NCBI GenBank assembly: GCA_031835245.2
Contig: JAVKOQ020000008.1
Coordinates: forward strand, 372,001-436,000
Reading direction: 5' to 3'
Source of the DNA: Balamuthia mandrillaris
Taxonomy: Eukaryota
Length of the DNA stretch: 64,000 bases
The notes beneath the pieces were generated by a model that saw only the letters and a program-made list of their open reading frames with translations, ran no database searches and was not told where the DNA came from. Position 1 is the stretch's first letter; the number at the start of each line of letters is the position of its first letter. Below are positions 13,449-33,948 of this stretch, piece by piece. The translations under genes and the position numbers were made by a program.

Positions 13449-15375
13449 TTACGTTCGGAGCCTTTTTTCAGGTGGTGTGATGTCTCTGAGGCCAAAGGAG
13501 GGCGGCGGGAAACTCTTTCCACCACCACTATTGTTGCTGCCCATGGCAGATGATGCGGGTGGTGAACCAGAGGATGAGCCTTGGTGGTGTTGTTGTTGGC
13601 TGAAGGAAGATGAAGACGAAGAGGGATAATTGTTGTTGGGTTGAGAATAAGAGTGATTGTTGTTGGAATAGCCACCAGAACCAGAGGCAGTACTAATACC
13701 AGGAGGAGCCGTGGAACTGATGGGTTGGGATTGTTGTTGGGAGAGAGGAGTGGCGGTGGCCTCATAGCCTCTCTTCCCTCGAGAGTAAGGAGGTACGGGA
13801 GTGGCTTGCGAGTCAGCGGAGAGGCTTTCTAGCAAATGTGCATCGGTTGCTGTATGATGTGAACAGAGGGTTAAGAAAAGCATAGAGAGAGAAGCAGAGA
13901 AGAAGAGAAACGTACAGTCTTGAGACAGCGGTGGGAGGCCTTGTTGTTGCGAGTAATAAGGGTTTGTAGAGTTATTCATCTGACTTGGTGCGGTTCTAAT
14001 AGTGGGCGAAAAGTGAGGAGCAGAGTTGATGCCTCCTTGTTGTGGTTGTTGTACATCGACGGTTGTTTTCAAAGGAAGAGACTGTGAGACAGAACCCACA
14101 GACGAGTTGGAAGGCTGTTGCTGTTGCTGTTGCTGTTGCTGTGTGAAGGAGGGGCCTTGGGAATACGAGCCATGTTGTTGTTGCGGTTGAGGGCTAGTGA
14201 ATGAATAAGGCTTGTTATTGATACCAGTTGATGACGACGTCGAGGAAGAAGGTGAAGACTGGCCATAACCAGTTTGGGATGGTTGATAGGGAGACGTGAT
14301 ATTTTGTAGTTGTGGAGGTTGTGGATAGGCCGTAGGAGGAGCAAAGCCCTTCGCAGCAGACAGGTCATGAGGATTGTGAGCTGCCGAGGGAGCTGCTGGT
14401 GGCTGCATCTGGGAAAGAGCCGTTGTGGAGTAGCCGTTGATGCTGTTGGACACATATGGATTCACCGGACTCTCCTCCAAGAAACCCGCTTCGCCCTAAC
14501 CCACACAAGAAGAAAACAAAAGAGTACACAAAGAATAAGAGCTAAGCGGAAAAGAACATAAGCAAGAAACAAGAACCTTTTTGGAGGATTTCAACTTGGT
14601 CAAATGTTGTTTGTCGTAGAGACAGTTGCCGAGAGCATTGCCGTACAACCTGAGGGCACGCTTCCGGGCGTCCGACACGGCCTCCTTCTTGGCATGCTCG
14701 ATAGCGCTGCCTTTCTTCGGGTGTTCGGACATGCCGTAGCCCACGTCCTCGTGGTAGGTCCCATCCTTGAGGCAAACCTTCACGATGGCCGTCACTCCAA
14801 CAGAGTACCTTCCTTGTCGTGTCTCTTCAATCTTTGTTGAACGTTTTTTTTTTGTTAGGCAACAACAGATGAAAGGAAGCAGAAGAAGAAGAACAAGAAG
14901 AAGAAGAAGAAGAAGAAGAAGGAAGAAGAAGAACAAGAACAGAAGAAGAAGAAACAAGAAGAAGAGGAAAAGAACGAAAAAAAAAACAGCAGAAGTGGGT
15001 ACATAATCAGGCACAATGTCAACTACTGAGCAGCTCCACCCGTTGAATCCGAAAATCTGATTGGCAATCTCGATCGCTTTCCAACTTTCCACGTAGGTAT
15101 AATGTGCTGCCCAAGGGGTTTTTTTTAAAATGAGCAAAAAACATAAAAAGAAAGAAGAAAGTGCTTACATCCCGCAGCGCCAGGGCGAGTGGCCAGATGT
15201 TCCTTGCCCAGCTTCTTTTGCAAGAGCTCGCGCACGATCTGCCTCTCGCCGGGGCTGAACTCCTGGTGCCCAAACAGCCTGGGTTGGTTCGTGGAAGCAG
15301 AAGAAGAGGAAGAGGAGCCCTCCGACTTGTCTCTTGGTTACCTCCCCCACCGCCACCTTCTACATTTTTCTCCAT
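13449..15375 (-). CDS. RAD52: Rad52/Rad22 DNA single-strand annealing protein with Q/S/P-rich tail, multi-exon
   Basis: YVESWKAIEIANQIFGFNGWS, VGVTAIVKVCLKDGTYHEDVGYG and AKKEAVSDARKRALRLYGNALGNCLYDK. Confidence 0.92.
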
Positions 15376-16294
15376 TTACTACAGCTGCGACTGGTAGGTC
15401 TTCTTCGTTTTTTTTTTGCTGTGTTTTCTTTTGCGTTGGTTCTAAATTTTTTCCTGGCAGAGATTTTCATGTTTAATTATGCGAACGGAAATTTTTTGTT
15501 CCTGGAAATTATTTAAAAATGTTTGAGGAGCCTTCCATGTTAACTCGCGGGGCGAAACAAAAGGAGGAGAGTGAGCCGCTACGAAGTAGAGGCGTGAGCG
15601 CTTTTGCCGAGGTTCCTCTGTACTAGCCGCCATGGAAGCGTGGAGTGTTACAGTTCAACCTCGGTGACGTTCCGTTCATTGTCAGCAGGAACGTTATTTA
15701 GAATAGTTTTTACCCCATGCAAAAACAACAGACGTTCCCTCTGCTGTACACCGCTAGCTACGGTATTCCTAGGAATGCGACAGGAAACACTATTTTTTGC
15801 GGTGACGGGAACAACACGGAAGAGAGAGAGATTCACAAAAGCGCGCCTTCCTCGCGCGACATCAAAAATGCTTGCACCGGGAGTCGAACGGCTTCCGCTG
15901 ACGAAATTTCATCGATCCAACCATTGTATTTTCTTCTTTCGGCCGCTGGACTTGCCACCAGTTTTCTTCGAGATCCACAATCAAAAAACCGAAAATGCCA
16001 TCTTTAAAGTTGTAAAGCCTCTGGTTTGATTTTGAACTTCACCAGGCTTCCCTTCTCTTTCTCTTGGTTTTTTTGTTTATCTGTTTTGAAACCAAAGAAA
16101 CAAGAGAAGTGGCACCAACTTCCTTGTTAACCAAGTTCAACAACTTACCACAACCAAAAAAAAAAAAAAAAAAAGTGAAAAGAAATAGGTACCTCCTCAT
16201 CAACGCTTCTTTTCTATCCTGTTATATGTTTTCATTTTTGCTCACAACAAAAAAACTACCCACCACCGAACGAAACAAAAAAGAATTCACTGAC

Positions 16295-18994
16295 ATGCAT
16301 AAAATGCAATGCGCAACGAAAGTGCCTGCCCTGCGCAGAGAGGCTCTCTCCGCTTTGACCACCCGCAACAAGGCCCTGCTTCCGTCCACAACTTCCTCCT
16401 CCCTCTTCTCCTCCTGCTGTGGACGATCCTTGTTCACCTACAGCTCTTCTTCCTGCTCCTCCTCTGCCTCTCATAAGGTCTCTCCTCTCCTTCTCGCTGC
16501 CAGAAGGGAGCTTCAGTCTTCTTCCGTCTTTTCCTCCAGAAGAGGTTATGCTGTCTTCAATCCGAACCATGGCAAAAAGTCGAATGCCTTCAGCCATAAG
16601 ACTGCCTGGCTGGTGGGAGCGGTCGTGACTGGAGGATATCTGCTCTATATGATGGAACGCCTGGAGAGGGACGTGGACAAGACCGACGCCAAGCTGGCCG
16701 GGGCCAAGGAGCCGGCCAGAGAGAAGGCCAGAGAGGCCGGCGTACGGGAGGACCACGACATGACCGCCCTTACCAAGAAAGGTTACGACAAGCTGAGAGA
16801 AGGAACCAGTACCGCTATCAAGAAGACCACCGGCATCGAGGTCGGCGAGCAAAAGGACCACAGAAGCAAGGAGGAGAAGAGGGAGGACGCTCGCATGCAG
16901 GACGCTGTGCAGAGAAGCAGAGAGGAGGCCAAGAATAACCATCCGGAGCTGTACAAGCGAGCGAAGAGGGAGGGACGCGAGGCGTATGGTGAGTACGAGG
17001 AGCATTACGAGAAGGTGCCCACCTTGAGGGAGGAGGCAGCTGAAACGCTGCAACAAGCCAAAGAGAAGACGAAAGAAGTGGCAGAAAAAACAAAAGAGAC
17101 GTATCGAGAGGGCAAAGAGATGGCCCGTGAAGTCTCCGACAAGGCCAAACAAACCTACCAAAAGAGCAAAGATACGGTTGGACAGATGGCAGAAACGGCG
17201 GAAGAAACGTACGAACGAGGCAAGAAGAAAACCGAGGAGGCTTGGCAACAGGGAAAGCAGGTGGCTGGAGAGGTCGCGAAGAAAGTGGAGGAGACCTACG
17301 AAAAAGGAAAGGAGAAAGGAAAGGAGTTGGGAGAGAGAGCCAAAGAACAGTATCAGAGAGGGAAGGAGAAAGCAGCTGAGATGGCGGAAGAGGCGGAGGA
17401 AACTTACGAAGAAGGTAAAGAGAAGGCTAAACAAGTTGGAAGATCCGTTCAGGACAAGTACCAACGAGGCAAAGAGAAGATGGGAGAAATGGCAGAAGAA
17501 GCCGAAGAGTCCTATGAAAAAGGCAAAAAGAAAGCCAAGGAAACAGTCAGAACTGCTCAAGACAAATATCAACAAGGAAAAGCGAAGATTGGAGAGATGG
17601 CAGAAGGAACAGAAGAAATTTATGAAGAAGGTAAAGAGAAAGCGAAAGAGGCAGCCAAAACGGCTTCAGTCAAGTACCAACGAGGCAAAGAGCAGATGGA
17701 AGGAACTTACGAAGCAGGCAAAGAGAAAGCCAAGGAAGCAACCAGAAGTGCTCAAGGCAAGTACCAACGAGACAAGGAGCAGATGGAAGAAACATACGAT
17801 GAAGGAAAGCAAAAAGGAGAAGAATTAGGAGAACGAGCCAAACAACAGCTTCAACGCGGCAAAGAGAAAGCAGAAGAGTTGTATCAACGAGGCAAGGAAA
17901 AAACTGGAGAAACCTACGAAGAAGGAAAGAAGGCAGAAGAAGGATACCAAGGAGGAAGGCAAAAAGGCGAGGAATTGGGAGAGAGAGCGAAACAACAACT
18001 TCAACGAGGCAAAGAAAAAATGGGCGAGGTGATTGAGGCCGGTAAAGAGAAGGCAAAACAAGTGAAGGAGAAGACCCTAGAAGCGTTTGAGAGCGGTAAA
18101 GAAAGAGCAAAGGGAGCTGCTGAAGAATTGCATAAACAACAAAGAAGAGGACGCGATGAAGTAGAACAAAAAGGAATGTTGCAGAAAGCCAAAGACACAG
18201 CGGTAGACACTTACGAGCAAGGCAAAGAGAAAGCCAAAGAATTGGGGCAAGAAGCCAAAGAAGCGATGAAGCCGCGTCCTGAACAATCACCAAAACGTCA
18301 CGTGGAAGAAGAAGCTAAACCAAAGCAGGACCAACAACAACCTGGTCTGCTACAGAACATCGCGATGGTGGGACACGAGTTGGTGGACAAAGTGGCTCAT
18401 AAAGCTGGTGAAATTGTAGGAGGAACACGAAAAGAGAATGACGAAGAGCGACAGAAAGCCATCGAGAAAGAAGCGGAACAAATTCGACGAAGAAATAGAG
18501 GAGAAAAAGAAGATAAGGGAAGAAGAGGCGGAGAAGCAGAAAAAGGAATGATGCAGAAAGCCTCTGATAAAGCCCACGAACTGGACGAAGCCACAAAAGA
18601 AGCTCTAGATCAAATGTCCGACGAAGAGAAAAAGCAGAGAAAACGATCCTCGTCTTCTCTCCCTCCTCCAAAACAACCTACTGAACCAACAAAAGAGCGA
18701 AAGGAGGAGAAGGAAGGAGATCTCGCTCCTTGGATGAAACCAGACACAAGACATCGCAACCTGGACAAACGCTACCAAGCTATCAAAGACTCTGCGGAGG
18801 AAGTCAAACGTAAACCCTTTGAGAGAAGAGATGCTGCCTATCGCGCTCGCAAAGAAGGCTCTTTGAGGCACTACAACGATGCTCAGTCCACTTACACAAT
18901 GCAAGAGACGCCTCATATCGACGGCAAGAGCCTCGAGCAGACCAGAGAGGCAGCAAAAGGCACCACTCGCGGCGTTCGTCAAACCAGCAGGTGA
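16295..18994 (+). CDS. LEA-like/apolipoprotein-like amphipathic helical repeat protein with predicted mitochondrial presequence and one TM segment, intronless
   Basis: R/S/L-rich acid-poor N-terminus ending RRGYA, hydrophobic WLVGAVVTGGYLLYM, then many YxxGKEKA repeats spaced 11 or 18 aa apart. Start may instead be 16304. Confidence 0.75.
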   Translation: MHKMQCATKVPALRREALSALTTRNKALLPSTTSSSLFSSCCGRSLFTYSSSSCSSSASHKVSPLLLAARRELQSSSVFSSRRGYAVFNPNHGKKSNAFSHKTAWLVGAVVTGGYLLYMMERLERDVDKTDAKLAGAKEPAREKAREAGVREDHDMTALTKKGYDKLREGTSTAIKKTTGIEVGEQKDHRSKEEKREDARMQDAVQRSREEAKNNHPELYKRAKREGREAYGEYEEHYEKVPTLREEAAETLQQAKEKTKEVAEKTKETYREGKEMAREVSDKAKQTYQKSKDTVGQMAETAEETYERGKKKTEEAWQQGKQVAGEVAKKVEETYEKGKEKGKELGERAKEQYQRGKEKAAEMAEEAEETYEEGKEKAKQVGRSVQDKYQRGKEKMGEMAEEAEESYEKGKKKAKETVRTAQDKYQQGKAKIGEMAEGTEEIYEEGKEKAKEAAKTASVKYQRGKEQMEGTYEAGKEKAKEATRSAQGKYQRDKEQMEETYDEGKQKGEELGERAKQQLQRGKEKAEELYQRGKEKTGETYEEGKKAEEGYQGGRQKGEELGERAKQQLQRGKEKMGEVIEAGKEKAKQVKEKTLEAFESGKERAKGAAEELHKQQRRGRDEVEQKGMLQKAKDTAVDTYEQGKEKAKELGQEAKEAMKPRPEQSPKRHVEEEAKPKQDQQQPGLLQNIAMVGHELVDKVAHKAGEIVGGTRKENDEERQKAIEKEAEQIRRRNRGEKEDKGRRGGEAEKGMMQKASDKAHELDEATKEALDQMSDEEKKQRKRSSSSLPPPKQPTEPTKERKEEKEGDLAPWMKPDTRHRNLDKRYQAIKDSAEEVKRKPFERRDAAYRARKEGSLRHYNDAQSTYTMQETPHIDGKSLEQTREAAKGTTRGVRQTSR

Positions 18995-19209: not shown

Positions 19210-22200
19210 ATGGGCTGTCGGAAGGGGAGGTTATGGCGATGGTGGTTGGTCTGGGCCGTCTTATGCTGTCTAACGGTGCACGGCCAGTTCTTCTTTCCAA
19301 CAACCGACATCGCGGTTTGCAGAAGAGGAGAGTGCGTGACATCGTTCCTTCCCTGTCCCTCAGCAACATGCTCCGCTGACTTGAACTTTAAAAAAGCTGC
19401 GATGTGAAGATATTGGTGAAAGCTTACCTTACCAATGAAGGGCACAACTGGGAGCTAGAATACACGCTGGATGATGGTAAACCTTTCTTTCTTTCTGCTC
19501 TGCAAGCCGCTAACAACTGGCGACAAAGACGTAAGTTTCAAGGATCAGTATGACCGCACATGGAAAGCAGCAGAACCTATCCAGCTCCGTCTTCGTCGCA
19601 CCCTGTCACGAATAGGTCCTCCTTTCGTTTCTGTTTCATTCTAACTCTTTCTGTTGCTTCCGCTGAAACAGGCTTTGTCTCACTCTAACAGAATACGGAA
19701 TGACCTACGAAGGAGCCTACAAGAACGCGTACGAAGTTCGAACGGGACGGACTTCCTCCGAGCGTTGTCTCGCCGATCGCGTGTGCTGTCCCAACGACGC
19801 CTCCTTCTTCCCTCTCATCGGCTCCGAGAGCTACTTGGCTCAAAACCAAACTCTCTATCACGCCTTCTCCGTCGGAAGAGGCAGCTGGGTCTATGCCGTC
19901 GAGGTCACCGCCACGCAGGGAACCGCCTTTGAGAGCTTGCGTCTAAGCAACCTCAACCCCTCCGACTCGATGCCCAGTTTAACCGCTCAAGTCTCCAGCA
20001 GTTCGTTGGTGCTCTCCTCGTTTGCTGACTTCAGTCCCTTTCGCTTGGTTTCATCGGAGGAGGAGAGCAAGGAGAAGGCCTTCGTGGTGCCGCTGCACCG
20101 GTTCGGCACCGACGTGAACAGGATCGGCATAACCAAACAGAGTTGGATGAACCACAAGCGATGCGAGGCTTCTCCTGAAACCTCGCTTACCGCAGTCGAT
20201 GGAGGTTCCAGGTTTGCTTTTTCATCTTTTATGGGAAGCGCTTCAGCCTTCTAACCTGCTTTTGTTATGTCGTCGAAGATATGATCAGTTTTCAAAGTTT
20301 CGAGGAGACACGGTGAATACTCTGGCTGAAGGGTGTCTGCTTATACCAGAGCTCTCGTTCACTGATCCCAGCAAACCTTCGCAGCTTAAACAGGTTTTTT
20401 GCGTTCGCTTCCGCTTCCTGTTTGCAATGCTTCTCACGCTGTCTCTAAAAAGTCGTTTGACTGCGAAAACGTTGGCTCGCTAAGGGTTCTGATGGAACTC
20501 TCCACAAGCTCCTTTCGACTGAGAGCTTTGTTTGGCCGTCCTTTCATAACCGTTCGTGCTCTTCGCTCTCTTCTCGCTGTGTTATCGTCTTGTTCTTTTC
20601 TGACTTGAACAAAAAGGCATCGGGCGTGTTTCCAATCCAAGATGGCGATACCCAAGCATTGTTATGTAAGCTCAATCGTTCGTCTGTCTGGTTGTTCTTT
20701 CGTTTCTGTCTCTTCTGATGACTATGGTTTCCTTCTTCTTCGCGGATGCAGACATTGATTGCAGCAACCAGGGAGATAGCACAGGCGTTTTTGAGTTTCA
20801 GCCGGTGCGATGCTGCATAGAGCTGGCTAGTCGCTTGCAAATGGATTGTGAGGTTGACATTCTTTTTTTGTTTTCTTCTTCTTCCTCTCCTGTTTCATTC
20901 TGTGCACAGGAAAAGCTAAAAGAGTGAATGTAGAGTGTTTCATTTGCGCGTGCCCTCTCGAGAACTATCGACAAAGACGAAACCGCACGAGTGATATTCA
21001 CGATCCATAACGAGGTCCTTCTTCCATTACAGGTTTTGTCTTTTCTCGTTCACTTGTCTTCTCATTCGTATTCGTATTCGTATTTGCCTTCGTCTTCTTC
21101 TTTCATTCGTACAACAAACAGGAAGCATTCAACACGAAAGGTTTCTGCCAGTTCGACATCGTGCAGCATGGTCTCACCGAGCTCACTCATCAAGTAAACT
21201 TTAGCACTCAGGTCATCCCCATTGCTCCGCCTCCCGGCTCTATTCCTATCTCAGGTTTCTTCCTCCTTCATTCATTCCTCCTTCATCCTTCTGGCTGGTT
21301 TCCAACTGCGTTCGTATCTCCTAAAAAACCAAACAACAAAAAGATGATGAGAGTTGTGCTCCACCAAAAAGAGTGGTACAAATGGGAGGGCAAAAGTACT
21401 GTCAACCTGCATGCACACCCGACCAGAACTTTCATGAGCCAACGCAAGCATGCCTCCCAGTGGATTGCGTCCTGAAATACCTCGGCACTCGCAACTGGTA
21501 TGACGCCAACCAAGGTCGTTGCGTTCCTGCTGCCATTTGTGAGGATGATCAAGTATGTCGTGTTCTAGCTTTCCCCACGAAGCATGTGTTAACTTTCTGG
21601 GAAAAAGGTGTTTGATGAGTTGAGCAATGAATGTGACAAGAACTTACCGCCCGACTTTGAAAGTGGAAGCACCTCTTCAGCACATAGTAATGATGATAAC
21701 GGTGGCATCAGTCCTGTTCCTCCAACAAAGGTTTCTATTAATGTTCTTCTTCTCACTCTTCTTCCTTTCTTCTTTCTCTTCTTCTAGTTCTAGTTCTTGT
21801 TCTTCAGCTTTCCCGCATTGCTCTCTTCGGTAGTTGATTTTCGTATTATTGCTTTTGTTTGTTTGTAGGTGGTAGATTGTGGTCCAAATGGCCGTTTGAT
21901 GGCCAATAACCTGAGTTGTGAGTGCAATAAAGGGTGGAGCAACGAACCGAATCAAGACATCTTTACGTACGTGTGGTGCACGCGCCATGGCAAAGACCTC
22001 GCTGGTTTCCAAGACCCATCGGAAGATCCTCAGCCGAACACCACGGTTTCCTTCTTTCCTTGCCTCCTTTCTCACATCATCCCTCTTCCTTTGACTTCAT
22101 GCTTACATCTTTCTTGCCTTCTCTTCTCATTGCTCTCCCTCTTCCTCTTGCTTTTACAGATAATCGGAGTGTTCATCGGAGTTGTGGTAGGTTGCTGTTT

Positions 22201-22711
22201 GCTCTGCGGAGTTGGGTGCGGTCTGTTGTGGAAACGAAAGCAGTTAAGAGCAAGAAAGAAAAAGAGGAAAGCATTAGCAGCAATAGAACAGAGGGAACAA
22301 GACCTTCTCTCCAGAGTGGCAGCCATGTTGCCTGCTGGATGGAACGTTGTTGATATTAGAGCGTCCGATATCACTTTAAAGAAAGATGCAGGCAAAGGAG
22401 ATGATAGCACCATTAAAAAGCAGAAAGAAGACGATGAATTGGAAAGTGGAGAAAGAGAAAAGAGTGTGGAGGAAGCATGCGTCGTTGATTCGACGATAGA
22501 GAACAAGGAGGAGAAGAAAAAGAAAGAAAAGGGGAAAGAGAGAATAATGATAAATACGCCTTCTCCGGGAGTAACATCTTTACCACTCACTCGAGGAAGA
22601 AGAGCACCAAGTAATGGTTTGTTGAGACTTGTTGTTGGCTATGAAGAAGAAGAAGAAGAAGAAGAAAATGAGGAGAAAGCTGAAGATGGAAATGGTGGGA
22701 AAGATTCGTGA
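19210..22711 (+). CDS. HAP2/GCS1 (fusexin)-like type I membrane protein with extra Cys-rich/EGF-like stalk (gene A), about 13 exons
   Basis: Manual splicing gives a signal peptide, then CRRGDCDVKILV, PIQLRLRRTLSRIEYGMTY, VCCP, LYHAFSVG, FVVPLHRFGTDVNRIGITKQSW..RC, LMELSTSSF, CSNQGDSTGVF, FCQFDIVQ..VNFST, Cys-rich repeats, a Cys-rich TM and a polybasic tail. These are colinear with remembered HAP2 sequence. Confidence 0.75.
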
Positions 22712-22828: not shown

Positions 22829-25800
22829 CTACATGTTCATGAACCGAAGAGAGCGATTCTCTCTTTGCCGATGTTTTGTGTTGGAGAAAGGCATTGTCCC
22901 ACCTCCACACAAACACCGCTGAAGGCAGTAGAGAAAACCTGTCGCTAAAGAAAGAATCGTCACCCATTTGATCACTCTTCTTTGCGTACTTGTTCTCTTT
23001 GCATCCAAACGCCTGGGGTTGTGAAAAACAAAAAGAAAAAGCACAATTATAAAAATTAGTAGCAAAGAAAAGTAAAACAAGAGAGCAGCAGCAGAAGAAG
23101 AACAAGAAGAAGAAGAGCAAGAGCAAGAGCAAGAGCAAGAGCAAGAGCAAGAGCAAGAGCAAGAGCAAGAGCAAGAGCAAGGCAGAGCAAGGCAAGAGCA
23201 AGAGCAAGGCAAGAGCAAGGCAAGAGCAAGGCAAGGCAAGAGCAAGAGCAAGAGCAAGAGCAAGAGCAAGAGCAAGAGCAAGAGCAAGAAGAAAAGCGTA
23301 CATGGCTTGGTATTCATCCCAGTAAAGAACAGCATTCGCCTGTCCTTCTGGCAGTTCAAAAGCGGAAGGATGTGGGAAGAGCGAATTGTACAAGTCACGA
23401 ATGTAACGCAGCACTCTCCTGCTTGAAGGCTTTGTGTGATCAATGTCATCATTGACGCAAACAAACTTTCTGGGATGTTCCCGAATGCCGTCCAACATGC
23501 GTTGAGCGCTGGTGGCGTTGCCTGAGAGCATGACAAAGGCGACGTCGTCCGTGCCCTGAACCTCGTACTTGTTCTTGGAGCGAGAGACTTGGTGGTTGTA
23601 GAGCTGGTTCATTACCTCTTCGCAAGAGAGCAGTTCTTCTTTGTTGATGCGAATGGGATCTATTTCTTCTTCGATATATTCTTCTTCCTCTTGTTTCTCT
23701 GTTTGCTTATCCTCGTTTTCGTTTTGTTGTTGTTCTTGTTGCTCCTGATTTGGCAATTCCACGGCCTGAGCAACGCCTTCATTTTGTGTATTCGCTTCTT
23801 CTCGTTCTCGTTCTTGTTGTCCTTCTTGTTGCTCTTGTTCGTGTTCTTCCTCTTCTCGGGTTAATTCGGGAGGATGGATTTGGTCTTCCTTGTCTTCTTG
23901 TTGTTGCTGTTGTTCTTCTTGTTGTGCTTGTTCTTGAGGAAGGGCGCAAAGATTGAGGGGATCCTTCAACTTTGCCTTAAAGTCATTCCACGTGCTTTCG
24001 CTCAACGGGGAGCCATAAAGTCGCGTGGCCAGAGTGCGGAGCTCGTTATAGTCCAAATCACCAGAGCCATCGCCATCGAACCTCTGCCAAACGTCTTCAA
24101 ACTCAAAGCCTGCTTTCTCGTGTATGAGAAAGTAGAAGTAGGAGAAGGCATATTGCATGTCTTTTGGACTGCGAAAACGATGAGAGGAAGTCTCTGCGAA
24201 ATGTTCTGGCCAACGGGCTTGCAGTCTCTCCATCACTTGGATGTCTATCATATGAGGCATGTGTGCGATAACATTTCTGGCTGAGGGACCAAACTCTTGG
24301 TCGAGCAAAGAGTTGACGAAGCGAAGAGAATCTCCAAATGTGTCCAACAGTTGTCGTCGTTGCTTGTTATTATTGTTGTTTGCGTTTTGTTCTTCTGGTT
24401 GTTGTTTTTCTTCTTCTTTACCCCATTCAGAACGTTCCCAAGGAAAAAGAGAAGGCGGAGGTTGATTCTTCAGCTTCTTCTCTAATTCTGCCCAGTAGCT
24501 TTGTGATTGATGAGGAGATTCTGGAGGAAACGAAGAAATCAAATCGGATTCACGAGAAAGAGGCACCGGCTCTTTGGCCAATAGCCGACGCAAGTTTCTT
24601 GCGCGTTCCAAAGCTGCTTTTAAGGCTTGCTCTTCTTCGCTGAGTTTTCTGTCGACTATGTGTTCTTCTACTACGTTCTGTGTTGCTCTTTCTTCATTAT
24701 TCACTGTTTGTTGTTGCTCCGCATCGTTATCGTCCATCTCTTGTTCTTCGTGTTGTTCTTCTGTCGGTGTTGTTGCTTCCGCGGCATCTGTCGTGTGGTC
24801 TTGTTGTATTGTTGATGGAGGTAATAAGCCAGCTCGCAACACGATGTTGTATTCTGTTTCCACGTCGTTTTCAGACGTTTTAATAGAGATGGCTACATCC
24901 TGTCGTGTTACATTGCTAAAAAAAAGTCAGTAATACAAAATAGGGAAGAGTCTTTTCTTTTTTGAGAAAGAGAGAACGGAGGAGAGTGCGTGAGAGCGAG
25001 AGATGAGCTAACCGATGAAACGTGAGAGTCATGAGTTTATGCTTTTGTGAGATGGTGGCAGAACGAATCAAATCAGAATCCTCATGAGAGCCATCCACGA
25101 TGCGTGCCTCATGTACAAGTCCACTGAGTCCAACGTATGCTGCCAAGACATCACCAGGTATTTCTACGACAGCTCCGCTCTATATTTTTAAAACCAGAAA
25201 TGATGCATTCGTAAGAAAAAATATAGGAGGAACGAAAGAAATAGAATATAACCTCTGTGACGTTGGCACCATATACGTTGGAAATAACGGTTTCGACGCC
25301 ACAATCTCCTGCATCCATACCACAGTCTTTGTTCTTGCAAGGCTCATCGCAGTACTTATCTCCTATCCAACTTTTTTTGTCGTAGGTTTTGTTACTAAGC
25401 TAGAGAGTAGAGTAGAGTAGAAAGAAAATCTTTGAGAACAAACCTGTCAGGACATCCCCAGCTACAGTACTGGTTGGCCTCTGAATTCTTTGACCCTGTC
25501 ATATGTTATAAATGAGAGAGCAGAGAGCAGAGAGAGGATTAACTTACAGGGAAAAGACCATCCACCGCCCACACCTTGATTAGGAGCAACTCCAACACAA
25601 TCTCCTCCATCCCAACTGCAGGCACTGACATTGCAAGCCACATCACAATATCCATCTTTAATCCAACCAGCAGGACATCCAGGAGCACAGTCAGGAACAG
25701 GCCATGCCAAAAAGACCTTTTGTCCTTTGCCCTGTGTGTAAAAGTCGTCCGGCCATATGGGAGAAGAAAAGAGTGTGTCATCGTTGAGATAGAGAAACTT

Positions 25801-26103
25801 ATTGGAGAGACCGGGAATACGATGAAGGTGTGCCTCTATTGCGGGAGAGGAGAAGGTAGGGAGGTGGCTCTTGTTGAGGAAGATCATGTCGTGGGTGATG
25901 AGGCGGATGCGAGGATGGGAGAGGTCCAGCCAGTAGGGAATCTGGCCGTTGGTTACCACGTAGATGTTGCGCACCCACGGTGCATTGAATTCCAAGGAAC
26001 GAAGGGAGTAACGCAAGTCTTCGTTGTCTGTGTTGCGTTCGGTTTTTTTTTTTTTTGTGTGTGTGTGTGTGTTATTGTCTCTTAGATTTTTTTCTGTTTT
26101 CTC

Positions 26104-26178
<75 letters not shown>

Positions 26179-26940
26179 CGACAAAACAAACCTATGAAAC
26201 GGCTGAGAGAGTCGCTGTCACGATAACAATTTTGGGAGGCAGCATCAGCTGTGGAAGAGGCAGGTGAAGTTGTTGCAGCATCGTTGTTGTTGTCGTTGTG
26301 GTTGTTGCGTTTGTCGGCACTAGTCTCTGCGTTCTCTTCATCCTTTGGAGTGCACAAGTCTTACCGAGCAAGAGTAAGTATAAAAAGAGACTAACAGAAG
26401 AGAGAGAGAGAGAGAGAGAGAGAGATGAGAGAGAGAGCTTACAGCTATTATCGCCTAGCATGCTCTTCGTCCGCGCGATCGCTGGTTCACCGCAGAAACA
26501 GAAGAAGAAAAGAAAAAAAGCAACATTTCAAACAGAGCAATGAGACGCAAGCAACAAAAGAAGAAGGAGAAGAAGAAGATGATGGAACACAAGCAAAAAG
26601 GAGCAAGAGAAGCGGGATCAAGTAAGGAGAACGCGAACGAAGAAGAAAAAGCATACGAACCTTCAAGCAGACGCGGGTCGCTGCCATTCACCCACGTGTA
26701 CACCACATCGATCTCCGGAGCGCAGAGATTGTCCTCAAAGGAGCGACCCACGATGTTGTTCCCCCAATCCCGGAAGAAGAGCGAGGAGGGGGAGGAGTAG
26801 GCAGCGTTGTCCAGCAGGTGGTCCACGATGGAGAAGGTGGTGTTGAGGAGGAAGAGCATGCCCACCACGCAAGCGGCCATGCCCCACCGCGTGGACAGGA
26901 ACGTCAGGAACTTGCGCTGCACCAGCTTGCGCAGCGTCAT
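22829..26940 (-). CDS. GNPTAB: GlcNAc-1-phosphotransferase alpha/beta precursor (Stealth family, GNPTAB-like), multi-exon
   Basis: N-terminal [15 protein letters not shown] (Stealth CR1), [32 protein letters not shown] (CR2), LNR repeats, [15 protein letters not shown] (CR3), an EF-hand, [10 protein letters not shown] (CR4) and a C-terminal TM. Confidence 0.92.
23100..23290 (+). repeat. (GAGCAA)n / (GGCAA)n intronic microsatellite
   Basis: Tandem repeat visible in the last GNPTAB intron. Confidence 0.9.
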
Positions 26941-27442
26941 TTCTCTCGCCCCTCTAGAGTTCTCTCTTCCCTCGCCTCCGCAAAGAGAGAATCTTTCTTT
27001 CACGATTTCTTCTTTCTTTTTGTGTCGAAAATGTGCGAAGCACCCCTCGTGAATAACCACGTCGTCATGGTTTTATTTAATGTCGATGTTCCATGTCGTC
27101 ATGTTAATCGGGTGTTTCGTGTCGACGTCAATACTGCATCGTGTCGTCATTTGTATACGCATTCCGATCTCTGTAAAGATTTCGGGAATGATGGGACCAA
27201 TCGGCACACGCCACATCATCTGTAAATATTAAAAACCCCTCGACTCATTGTCGACAAATAACAATTTACCGTTTCGCTTTTCTTTTTCGTCGCTCTGCCC
27301 TCTAATTTTTTTTTCCTCTTCTCTTCGACACCAACAACAACCTAAACACACAGACACACACCCGTTGGGCGGCCTGTTTTCACCGTTGGGCGACGATCAC
27401 ACACACCACACACACACTAAATAATTTTTTTTTTAAAAAAAC

Positions 27443-32198: not shown

Positions 32199-32353
32199 AT
32201 GATGAAGGGCGCGCTTGCAAGTACCACGTGGCGGTTACTGCTGGTGGTAGTACTAGCTTGCCATGATAGGTTGAAAGTGATGGGAGGACTTGACTCCGTT
32301 CGATGGACTCCACCAGATTGCTCTGAAGGGTTACGGTCCTTCCCTTGCTCGCT

Positions 32354-32395
<42 letters not shown>

Positions 32396-33610
32396 CTCTC
32401 TCTCTTCACTTGCAGCGCTTCTGTTCTTGTAACAAGACCTTAATGATAAAGAGTTGGGAATTGTCGATCGGATCTTCAAGTCAGCATTCATTTGGATAAA
32501 ACGGAGCTCTCCTACCAACGAACATGGGAATACTTTGTTACTTCTTCGTCAGATCCGAGACCCATCTTTCTCCAGAAGCCTTTTACTCTGAAAACGGAGG
32601 TTTCCACTACTGCAGCAGGTATCTAGCCCCTCAACAACAACAACATCACAAACAAAAAAAAAAAAAAATGCATCAAAAAGCATTGGTTCTTATAGTGGAA
32701 CTTACATATTTTGTTTATATTGTTTCGTTCATTTAAGTGCTTCAGTTGATGCACACAGAAATTATCTACAACACTTTTGAAGACTTTGTACCAGATCCAT
32801 TCTGTCCCTATATGCCCAAGGTTCCATTCTATATATTCTTTTATTATTTCAATCTCAGAAGCAAAAAAAAAAAAAAACTCGCTTACTTCCTTCTTTCACA
32901 CTAATAGAGAGGTCGTTGTACAGAAACCACACGAGAAGCTCAACGAAAACTTGTTCTCTGCTGTCAAGGATACGCCAGAAGAGGAGTTGGTCAACATTGC
33001 TTGAAGAGCAACCTATCCGAAGCGTATGATGTTTATGCGGTGCAACAGGTGAGGTTGCCTCTTCGTGTGACTGTCTCTGTCGGAGAATCCGATGAGGACA
33101 TGAAAGAGCTTCTTGTCATGACAGATACGAACCGAGAATATCGAACAAGCAAAGCAGACGTAAGTATCTTTTGTATAAGCATGAGAGAATATAAAGTGAA
33201 GAAACGAAGGACAAAGGAAATCAGAGGCCAACTGACGCTTGCTATAATGGTATGTAGGGATTGCTTCAAATGTACTCGGACGATGATGACGCTTATGGAT
33301 TGTTAAAACTGCCTCCGTTGGTCGTCCTAATGGTGCGCTCTCACCCATCGTCCGCCACAAAATCAGACTGGAGGTACATTCCTTTATTTTTCTACCGTGG
33401 TTGTGTTTCATATGGTTCTTGTTATTTGTCCTGCAGTTGTTAAAGCTCTCCTTATTATTATTAGGAATTGGTTTTATGTGTACAAAGCTAGCATTCCCAA
33501 GCAATTAGGGATGACAGAAGAGCAGTGGCGTTTGGTTGCTTCCTGTGATTCCACTCGCAACGCGCATACTCAGACCAACCCCGTTCGGCCAGAGTAACTC
33601 TCTCTGCTCT

Positions 33611-33646
<36 letters not shown>

Positions 33647-33948
33647 TCTCTCTCCCTCCTCCCTCGTGAGTGCAACCTTCTTTTGGTTAATGCTTTGCCG
33701 TGGCACAAGAGATCAGTTTCTATTGCTGCGAGAAAACAGGTTGGATAAACTTCTCTCTCTGTCAATGAGAGATATGGCTCTTTATGATCACCCGTCCCAG
33801 CGGTTGTAGCCACCCCCTTCCGTTTGCTTCGTCTTTCATTCTCATACCAAACTGCAGGTTGGACATGGCCATCCCGCGAAGTCCTGAGCCTCTTCAACTG
33901 GACCTGATCATCCGCCACATTCCTGTACACTTCAACGCCTCCCGCTGA
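32199..33948 (+). CDS. Secreted HAP2/GCS1 (fusexin)-like protein, domains I-II only (gene B), 8 exons, 353 aa
   Basis: Exons 32199-32329, 32452-32618, 32738-32820, 32908-33159, 33258-33373, 33465-33593, 33710-33802 and 33858-33948 join in frame (1062 nt). Product includes a signal peptide, CSEGVGNCRSDLQV, KPFTLKTEVSTTAAVLQL, FC..RC..LCCQG..QHCLK..YDVYAV..LRVTVSVG, NWFYVY..KQLGMTEEQW..SC and DQF. Confidence 0.7.

What the first reader, a model, noticed from the sequence alone, without database searches (positions are those of the whole stretch)
19210..22711. Gene A: divergent HAP2-like membrane protein with degenerate fusion loop and an added Cys-rich/EGF-like stalk
Seen: spliced sequence reads ...AYEVRTGRTSSERCLADRVCCPNDASFFPLIGSESYLAQNQTLYHAFSVG... 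Where HAP2 has a longer Cys-rich region and TAHCLRF..WFHVF, this protein has SESYLAQ..LYHAF, so the Cys and the conserved Arg that pins the fusion loops appear lost. A hydrophobic FFPLIG sits where a membrane-inserting loop would be. After the domain III-like part (NQGDSTGVF...FCQFDI...VNFST) come extra modules (CQPAC..CLPVDCVLKYLGTRNWYD..CVPAAIC; DCGPNG..CECNKGW..WC) not typical of canonical HAP2. These are followed by a Cys-rich TM (possible palmitoylation) and KRKQLRARKKKRK, a HAP2-like polybasic tail. Inference: an atypical fusogen or an adhesion/receptor derivative.
Basis: partly seen in the sequence, partly recalled or inferred. Interest (0 to 1): 0.85.

Follow-up and report, generated by a model that had tools for sequence, protein, structure and literature searches.

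The report
Ancient HAP2 cousin lacking fusion loop
This intact amoeba gene belongs to a widespread, apparently undescribed protist family predicted to fold like the sperm-egg fusion protein HAP2 but missing HAP2's membrane-piercing tip and carrying a long cysteine-rich stalk, so it likely helps cells dock or partners HAP2 rather than fusing membranes by itself.

Summary
Confirmed: a 14-exon, 821-codon gene under purifying selection (15 of 17 exonic variants synonymous), matching an unannotated Balamuthia mandrillaris protein. HAP2 homology is solid: profile-profile probability 99.5% over 409 columns; the AlphaFold model's best matches are HAP2 structures. It is not a one-off: 141 relatives at 50% clustering, with named members in dictyostelids, Heterolobosea, a jakobid and Anaeramoeba, form a group apart from canonical HAP2 and coexist with it in Dictyostelium and Naegleria. 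The family lacks HAP2's arginine-bearing cd segment and four of seven tip cysteines, and shares a ~185-residue Cys-rich plus EGF-like stalk. Some relatives keep only domain III plus stalk, or the stalk alone. Best reading: docking or HAP2-partner protein (0.45); bilateral EFF-1-like fusogen (0.30). Function untested; canonical HAP2 in this genome unchecked. The scan earlier noted loop-less HAP2s in octopus-like DNA, but not this family.

The parts
19210..22711 (+). Gene A, 14 exons: 19210-19331, 19397-19476, 19529-19615, 19692-20211, 20279-20393, 20453-20551, 20617-20665, 20752-20852, 20934-21032, 21122-21254, 21344-21552, 21608-21730, 21869-22045, 22160-22711; 821 aa type I membrane protein
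   Evidence: Open reading after splicing; NCBI model P0001 shares 12 of 13 introns' worth of sequence; RNA joints for introns 1 and 12; 15 of 17 exonic variants synonymous
19210..19284 (+). Predicted signal peptide (residues 1-25)
   Evidence: Hydrophobic N-terminal stretch; relatives start the same way; cleavage site inferred
19285..20622 (+). Fusexin domains I and II (residues about 26-343)
   Evidence: VIA-align to Chlamydomonas HAP2 6dbs_A Z 15.3, rmsd 3.0 over 272 residues; hhalign 99.5%
19733..19852 (+). Shortened domain II tip: strand-b Glu (E111), C122-x5-C128-C129, 10-residue cd loop (19790-19819, includes FFPLI), conserved N-x-T sequon on strand d (N148)
   Evidence: Model strands flank the loop; conservation Glu 31/46, Cys 50/52, 49/54, 52/54, Asn 37/58
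20623..21214 (+). Domain III, Ig-like (residues about 344-455)
   Evidence: VIA-align to Plasmodium berghei HAP2 domain 3 Z 11.1, rmsd 2.5 over 105, tied with generic Ig folds; hhalign
21355..21634 (+). Cys-rich domain, 8 cysteines, four beta-hairpins and one short helix in the model
   Evidence: Family-wide motif; model pLDDT above 90; no fold match above Z 2.9
21878..21979 (+). EGF-like domain with 4 cysteines
   Evidence: Pfam EGF_Teneurin E 0.004, below cut-off; weak EGF/CCP-like structural matches Z 2.0-2.6
22160..22270 (+). Single transmembrane helix with four cysteines, then polybasic stretch
   Evidence: Hydropathy; helix in model; Cys-rich end in 26 of 34 and basic cluster in 24 of 34 relatives
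22271..22711 (+). Low-complexity cytoplasmic tail, not conserved
   Evidence: pLDDT under 50; unaligned across relatives
32199..33946 (+). Second fusexin-like gene 10 kb downstream (domains I-II only, no domain III or anchor in my hand-built 9-exon model); related, possibly not part of the same system
   Evidence: Found in an unbiased six-frame scan (E 6e-4 and 0.12 for two exons); model scores 40.7 bits with the family profile, hhalign 92.5%

Best explanation
Gene A encodes a cell-surface protein predicted to keep the HAP2 rod (domains I-III) but lacking HAP2's membrane-inserting tip, and it likely acts in cell-cell mating contacts as a docking protein or partner of canonical HAP2 rather than as a stand-alone fusogen. 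Shown: intact gene, fusexin homology, family-wide deletion of most of the bc and cd segments, a conserved Cys-rich plus EGF-like stalk, coexistence with canonical HAP2 in Dictyostelium and Naegleria. Inferred: the polar, shortened tip cannot anchor in an opposing bilayer; the conserved stalk (and domain III) is the binding surface for a ligand on the same or the partner cell; the domain I-II rod serves as a spacer or as a subunit that pairs with HAP2 and holds or presents it, as accompanying proteins do for viral class II fusogens; the family arose by an early duplication of HAP2, before Amoebozoa, Discoba and Metamonada split.
For: Tip: C-to-CC spacing median 5 vs 28.5 residues and CC-to-strand-d median 19 vs 43; only 6 of 45 scored loops have 3 or more hydrophobic residues, while 14 of 14 scored canonical rows keep the Arg and three more cysteines. 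The Arg salt bridge and hydrophobic tip are required in Arabidopsis (PMC6089408 passages). HAP2's stem docks on the bc loop (PMC6327110 passages), which is deleted here, and the stalk is median 187 vs 53 residues. Among 141 hits, 4 proteins run signal-like N-terminus, domain III, stalk, TM (domain III match hhalign 98.3%) and 7 run signal-like N-terminus, stalk, TM, so the stalk survives where the fusion rod is lost. Canonical HAP2 is kept alongside: Dictyostelium hgrA/hgrB are other genes than DDB_G0290351; Naegleria canonical OG0000563 in 14 of 14 genomes, family member OG0004187 in 13 of 14. Low RNA depth against a neighbour's 10-60 fits a stage-limited gene. HAP2 needs a chaperone/adhesion partner with a Cys-rich, weakly EGF-like region in Chlamydomonas (PMC13601591 passages).
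Against: No experiment ties any member to mating. The Dictyostelium member gives only low peptide counts in membranes and is not gamete-enriched (type III: 1.7 in fusion-competent vs 4.8 in incompetent cells; type I only in the congenic set), though HgrA behaves similarly. EFF-1 fuses cells with an acidic tip and Fsx1 fuses with a short loop and an extra Cys-containing domain, so neither feature excludes fusion. All three fusexin domains are conserved across deep lineages, which a mere spacer need not be. The truncated relatives come from automated gene calls on unnamed contigs and may be fragments. No canonical HAP2 was found for this organism (genome not held; word-limited search).
Confidence: 0.45

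Rival explanations
1. It is a second, bilateral fusogen that works like EFF-1 or Fsx1: needed on both membranes, it would zip into trimers in trans without a hydrophobic loop, with the rigid stalk replacing HAP2's flexible stem; it could drive amoeboid cell fusion where canonical HAP2 is missing.
For: Complete domain I-II-III fold closest to HAP2, then Fsx1 and viral class II proteins; conserved strand-b Glu, ij-region Cys (80/81) and DQ motif (67/82); EFF-1 has an acidic tip and acts bilaterally (PMC8784728 passages); Fsx1's domain IV is needed for fusion (PMC9259645 passages); fusing amoebae without detectable HAP2 are reported (bioRxiv 10.64898/2026.07.05.736552 passages); 54 of 56 relatives with domains I-II and a TM keep the stalk.
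Against: Stalk over three times the canonical stem length with a flexible linker; stem-docking bc loop deleted; stalk-only and domain III-stalk relatives; canonical HAP2 retained in the two lineages checked.
Confidence: 0.3
2. It is a HAP2-derived surface receptor or adhesin with no role in sex (feeding, encystment, kin recognition).
For: Dictyostelium peptides are not enriched in fusion-competent cells; EGF-like and TNFR-like stalk is receptor-like (weak); stalk occurs without the fusexin rod; long acidic/basic tail.
Against: Very low RNA depth in the runs laid (growth conditions unknown); known HAP2 paralogs in Dictyostelium and Leishmania act in mating; single-copy retention in Naegleria is unlike expanding surface-antigen families.
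Confidence: 0.15
3. It is a conventional one-sided fusogen whose miniature FFPLI loop inserts into the target membrane.
For: FFPLI lies between the modelled c and d strands; HAP2 fusion loops vary widely; Fsx1 has a short loop.
Against: 39 of 45 scored relatives have fewer than 3 hydrophobic loop residues, many only a 1-3 residue polar turn; Arg anchor absent.
Confidence: 0.07
4. The family is an artefact of long-branch grouping of independently decayed HAP2 copies, or gene A is a decaying relic.
For: Long terminal branches and compositional bias flagged; only the quick tree finished; canonical sample lacks named amoebozoan or heterolobosean HAP2.
Against: Shared derived stalk motif, extra domain II Cys pair (59/73 each), domain III CC and sequon; 15 of 17 exonic variants synonymous; dictyostelid, Anaeramoeba and Naegleria+Willaertia members each group (100, 96, 96 SH-aLRT).
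Confidence: 0.03

Closest known systems
Canonical HAP2/GCS1 gamete fusogen (Pfam PF10699; PDB 5ow3, 5ow4, 5mf1, 6dbs, 6e18, 7s0k)
   Same: Signal peptide, domains I-III with the same fold, strand-b Glu, first bc Cys and CC, DQ-type motif after the ij loop, single TM with nearby cysteines.
   Different: bc and cd segments about 45-50 residues shorter; Arg, four of seven tip cysteines and usually the ij-loop Cys absent (8 of 73 have one); new Cys pair in domain II and CC in domain III; 187- vs 53-residue stalk; below Pfam cut-off.
Dictyostelium HgrA/HgrB and Leishmania HAP2-1/HAP2-2 paralog pairs (PMC4910948, PMC10630298)
   Same: HAP2-related paralogs coexisting in one genome, some needed on both partners.
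   Different: The Dictyostelium family member DDB_G0290351 is neither hgrA nor hgrB; HgrB is reported as dictyostelid-limited whereas this family spans several supergroups.
Archaeal Fsx1 (PDB 7p4l; PMC9259645)
   Same: Fusexin with a short cd loop and an added Cys-containing domain between domain III and the membrane; Foldseek E 2e-14.
   Different: Fsx1 has an uncharged functional loop, a six-helix bundle and three TMs; the stalk model did not list Fsx1 domain IV among matches (inconclusive).
C. elegans EFF-1/AFF-1
   Same: Fusexin without a hydrophobic tip.
   Different: Not among the 50 listed structural matches; sequence and structure here are closer to HAP2.
Chlamydomonas MAR1 (PMC13601591; PDB 9QS0)
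   Same: Cys-rich extracellular region built of two-stranded sheets, weakly EGF-like, in a protein that chaperones HAP2 and mediates adhesion: a functional analogy for the stalk.
   Different: MAR1 has no fusexin domains, is reported only in green algae, and did not appear in sequence or fold searches with the stalk; homology not shown.

Membership tests
Fusexin (class II fusion protein) superfamily | Domains I, II, III with class II topology | tested here: met
   Model pLDDT mostly above 85 over the ectodomain; Foldseek top ten all HAP2 or Fsx1, E 1.6e-19 to 3e-14; VIA Z 18.1 (7s0k, rmsd 10.1, 372 aligned) and 15.3 (6dbs, rmsd 3.0, 272)
Fusexin (class II fusion protein) superfamily | Type I membrane topology: signal peptide, C-terminal anchor | tested here: met
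   Hydropathy and gene model; intron-1 RNA joint
Fusexin (class II fusion protein) superfamily | Post-fusion homotrimer of hairpins | not tested
Fusexin (class II fusion protein) superfamily | Drives membrane merger | not testable with these tools
   Needs a cell-fusion assay
Canonical HAP2/GCS1 | Pfam PF10699 above curated cut-off | tested here: not met
   13.9 bits vs 27.4; 5 of 39 aligned relatives match at E 0.1 or better, best 1.8e-11
Canonical HAP2/GCS1 | Detectable sequence homology over domains I-III | tested here: met
   hhalign 99.51%, E 8.7e-23, 409 columns; profile vs 5ow3 E 3.2e-12
Canonical HAP2/GCS1 | Seven invariant cysteines in the b-c-d region (PMC6089408) | tested here: not met
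   Three in gene A and in most relatives
Canonical HAP2/GCS1 | Invariant Glu-Arg salt bridge | tested here: not met
   Glu kept (31 of 46); the Arg-bearing segment is deleted
Canonical HAP2/GCS1 | [quoted passage not shown] | tested here: inconclusive
   Gene A has four hydrophobic residues in a 10-residue loop, but only 6 of 45 relatives have 3 or more; surface exposure not measured
Canonical HAP2/GCS1 | Groups with canonical HAP2 in a tree | tested here: not met
   42 family rows vs 18 canonical rows split at SH-aLRT 100 in the quick tree; long-branch caveats
Canonical HAP2/GCS1 | Gamete-restricted expression and requirement for fusion | not testable with these tools
   Low RNA depth, conditions unknown; Dictyostelium member not enriched in fusion-competent cells
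Dictyostelid HgrB | Orthology to DDB_G0281923 | tested here: not met
   The D. discoideum relative is DDB_G0290351
Archaeal Fsx1 | Der p 23-like domain IV, six-helix bundle, three TMs | tested here: inconclusive
   Single TM; stalk model lists no Fsx1 match

The most novel reading that the evidence does not exclude
Early eukaryotes had two fusexins: HAP2 and this loop-less, stalked sister family, which is either the long-sought conserved accompanying/docking partner of HAP2 or a second, bilateral fusogen behind amoeboid cell fusion; its membrane-proximal module (domain III plus stalk) lives on alone in lineages that dropped the fusion rod, and the anchorless domain I-II gene 10 kb away may show the other half of such a split.
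Probability: 0.35. Interest if true: 0.92.

Novelty: new variant of a known kind. Interest (0 to 1): 0.74.

Why it matters
HAP2 is treated as the one ancestral eukaryotic gamete fusogen, and its conserved partners are largely unknown outside algae and plants. A sister family spread over Amoebozoa, Discoba and Metamonada, invisible to the Pfam model used in sex-gene surveys, changes the inventory of early eukaryotic fusion machinery and offers a candidate for fusing amoebae reported to lack HAP2. It is directly testable: Dictyostelium discoideum has an unannotated member (DDB_G0290351), a mating assay and existing hgrA/hgrB mutants.

Tried and rejected
No whole genome is held for this window, so canonical HAP2 in this organism is unchecked; a word-limited search with a canonical alignment gave 17 canonical HAP2s, none from this organism, which is weak; the 64-kb window holds none. 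A trimer prediction could not be run (tool unavailable). Word-based homolog searches gave only the two Balamuthia proteins. Single-sequence PDB search gave only TM-segment noise. ESM Atlas gave no usable hit for P0001 (its model had pLDDT 0.34) or P0004. Stalk fold: no Foldseek match at E 0.001 or better, best VIA Z 2.9 against fibrillin and TNF-receptor-type domains; MAR1 and Fsx1 domain IV not listed, inconclusive. Viral origin: P0146 has no relative in viral contigs; four short hits to the second gene's exon (23 residues, E 6e-4 among candidates) judged chance, not followed; best viral structural match E 8e-13 is weaker than HAP2. The careful tree did not finish in three runs; the quick tree is reported; it used 42 of 142 family proteins (those with near-complete ectodomains) and 18 of 20 canonical rows. 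Three stalk-bearing proteins (P0088, P0108, P0127) could not be shown to have domain III (hhalign 2.9%). No RNA holder was listed by the index; run X2 gave two 151-base pieces, no evidence. Literature: ten full-text searches found no description of this family; member identifiers gave 0 papers in main text and were absent from the supplements searched of PMC9259645 and PMC6263441 (one file cut when stored). The supplement of PMC5580921 could not be searched, bioRxiv supplements are closed, and a 2019 review of Dictyostelium sex (DOI recalled) is not held; any of these might name the Dictyostelium gene. UniRef's automatic name for one member (P0145) already says HAP2 domain-containing.
Full report
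Observation. The window is eukaryotic DNA with short introns. Fourteen exons from 19210 to 22711 splice to 821 codons without a stop: signal peptide, about 430 residues of beta-rich ectodomain, two Cys-rich modules, one TM helix with four cysteines, a basic stretch and a low-complexity tail. Exon 4 matches two unannotated Balamuthia mandrillaris proteins, P0001 (100%) and P0002 (97%; allele or second copy, undetermined). RNA reads of the same species label cover the gene thinly (depth about 0-4 against 10-60 for the upstream neighbour) and join introns 1 and 12 with 3 reads each; 11 introns lack listed joints. Of 26 listed differences within the gene, 9 are intronic and 15 of the 17 exonic ones are synonymous. 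The gene is real and constrained.

Homology. Pfam HAP2-GCS1 scores below cut-off and single-sequence PDB search finds nothing. A phmmer search of 1.84 billion representatives gave 141 relatives at E 0.001 or better. Their profile hits three HAP2 structures. To get a canonical comparison set I scanned metagenomes for a HAP2 motif (96 loci; HAP2-like ORFs picked) and retrieved 17 PF10699 proteins; this set is partly selected on the HCLRF motif. Family versus canonical profile: 99.5%, E 8.7e-23, 409 columns over domains I-III. The AlphaFold2 model (115 sequences, mean pLDDT 76, pTM 0.54) matches HAP2 first, then Fsx1, then viral class II proteins.

A family, not a singleton. Of 30 relatives looked up, 10 carry an organism name: Dictyostelium discoideum (DDB_G0290351), D. 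purpureum, Tieghemostelium, Heterostelium, Naegleria fowleri, Willaertia, Pharyngomonas, Andalucia and two Anaeramoeba species; an Acanthamoeba gene ACA1_048430 is named as best hit in two annotations but I did not see its sequence. Placing these in Amoebozoa, Discoba and Metamonada is my own knowledge. Of the 141, 83 match domains I-II, and 54 of the 56 with domains I-II and a TM also carry the Cys-rich or EGF-like module. In the quick tree (60 rows, 420 columns) the 42 family rows and 18 canonical rows are split at SH-aLRT 100; dictyostelids, Anaeramoeba and Naegleria+Willaertia each group, the backbone is unresolved and long branches are flagged. Paralogy is shown independently: Dictyostelium hgrA and hgrB are different genes (PMC4910948 passages), and Naegleria has canonical HAP2 in 14 of 14 genomes and the family member as a separate, uncharacterized orthogroup in 13 of 14 (PMC9928731 supplements). 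An origin near the last eukaryotic common ancestor is an inference; transfer among amoebae is not excluded.

The domain II tip. HAP2 is defined here by seven cysteines and a Glu-Arg salt bridge, and the Arabidopsis R163A mutant does not fuse, though the Tetrahymena equivalent still mates (PMC6089408 passages). In the family the first cysteine and CC are 5 residues apart (median; canonical 28.5) and CC to strand d is 19 (canonical 43), scored on 45 of 115 and 14 of 20 rows. The deleted piece holds the Arg and three cysteines. The Glu is kept in 31 of 46. Gene A's FFPLI lies in the modelled loop with a confidence dip, but only 6 of 45 loops have three or more hydrophobic residues and many are 1-3 polar residues. 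A conserved N-x-S/T replaces the HCLRF segment (27 of 45).

The stalk. Domain III to TM spans a median 187 residues with 12 cysteines (34 rows, chosen for having the EGF match) against 53 and 4 in 15 canonical rows. Folded alone it gives a confident hairpin ladder, a flexible linker and an EGF-like unit with no strong structural match and no aligned counterpart in the canonical profile. HAP2's stem docks on the bc loop of a neighbour (PMC6327110 passages), which this family lacks. Four hits read signal-like peptide, domain III, stalk, TM (domain III hhalign 98.3%) and seven read signal-like peptide, stalk, TM; their organisms were not determined and they may be gene-call fragments, but if real the stalk works without the fusion rod.

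Mechanism. I commit to a non-piercing docking or HAP2-partner role (0.45). Viral class II fusogens and Chlamydomonas HAP2 depend on accompanying proteins (PMC13601591 passages), and HAP2 paralogs act in mating in Dictyostelium and Leishmania. The main rival is a bilateral fusogen (0.30): EFF-1 fuses with an acidic tip and Fsx1 with a short loop and an extra domain. Against a sexual role, the Dictyostelium protein appears at low counts in membrane proteomes without enrichment in fusion-competent cells and with inconsistent mating-type pattern, though HgrA is equally scarce. No step of the mechanism is shown experimentally.

Surroundings. Neighbours are a RAD52 gene, a long repetitive ORF and a convergent Stealth/LNR gene; nothing marks a mating locus. 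A six-frame scan found a second fusexin-like gene 10 kb downstream; my hand-built model has a signal-like start, domains I-II with CC, RR and HCL, and stops without domain III or anchor (40.7 bits to the family profile, 4.5 to the canonical). Its splice sites were chosen by me and are unverified.

Novelty. Ten paper searches and the supplements I could open showed no description of this family (see Tried and rejected); subscription papers are not covered, and one member has an automatic HAP2-domain name. Papers were seen as passages (PMC8777248, PMC6089408, PMC9259645, PMC8784728, PMC6327110, PMC13601591, PMC10630298, PMC6263441, PMC9928731, PMC6369745, two bioRxiv preprints), PMC4910948 as passages, section 3.1 and supplement rows; none was read whole. 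The scan's index holds no look-alike by sequence but has loop-less HAP2s in octopus-like DNA, unchecked by me. Verdict: real, a new variant of the fusexin kind, not a canonical HAP2; interest 0.74.

Noticed in passing
window 32199-33946 (+): Second fusexin-like gene: signal-like start, domains I-II with CC, RR and HCL, no domain III or TM in a hand-built 302-aa model; closer to gene A's family profile than to canonical HAP2.
   Followed up: partly
window 21104-21672 (-): A contig from run X1 is spliced on the opposite strand (CT..AC, 21318-21406) over exons 10-12 of gene A: an antisense transcript, possibly read-through from the convergent neighbour.
   Followed up: no
P0101, P0102, P0117, P0119 (also P0073, P0132, P0137): Proteins with domain III plus stalk but no domains I-II, four with signal-like start and TM. 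They read like animal proteins to me, which is unverified; organisms not determined.
   Followed up: partly
P0003, P0036, P0041, P0064, P0080, P0092, P0116, P0140: Stalk-only membrane proteins; P0003 repeats the Cys-rich plus EGF unit five times.
   Followed up: partly
P0039, P0044, P0065, P0122: A subgroup shares a conserved cytoplasmic C-terminal domain absent from gene A.
   Followed up: no
window 14499-15164 (-), 16016-18991 (+), about 23300-27000 (-): Flanking genes: RAD52 (Pfam E 7e-41), a long highly expressed repetitive ORF, and a Stealth CR2 plus LNR gene.
   Followed up: partly
PMC9928731 Table S5: In several Naegleria assemblies the family member and canonical HAP2 have gene numbers about 100 apart, suggesting the same scaffold.
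   Followed up: no
P0001 vs window 19210-19331 and 20666-20677: The public gene model lacks the signal peptide and has a 4-residue insertion in domain III; P0002 also skips exon 9.
   Followed up: yes
L013:629-3337, L015:1646-3967, L066:1154-3082: Intron-free canonical HAP2 reading frames in metagenome contigs.
   Followed up: partly
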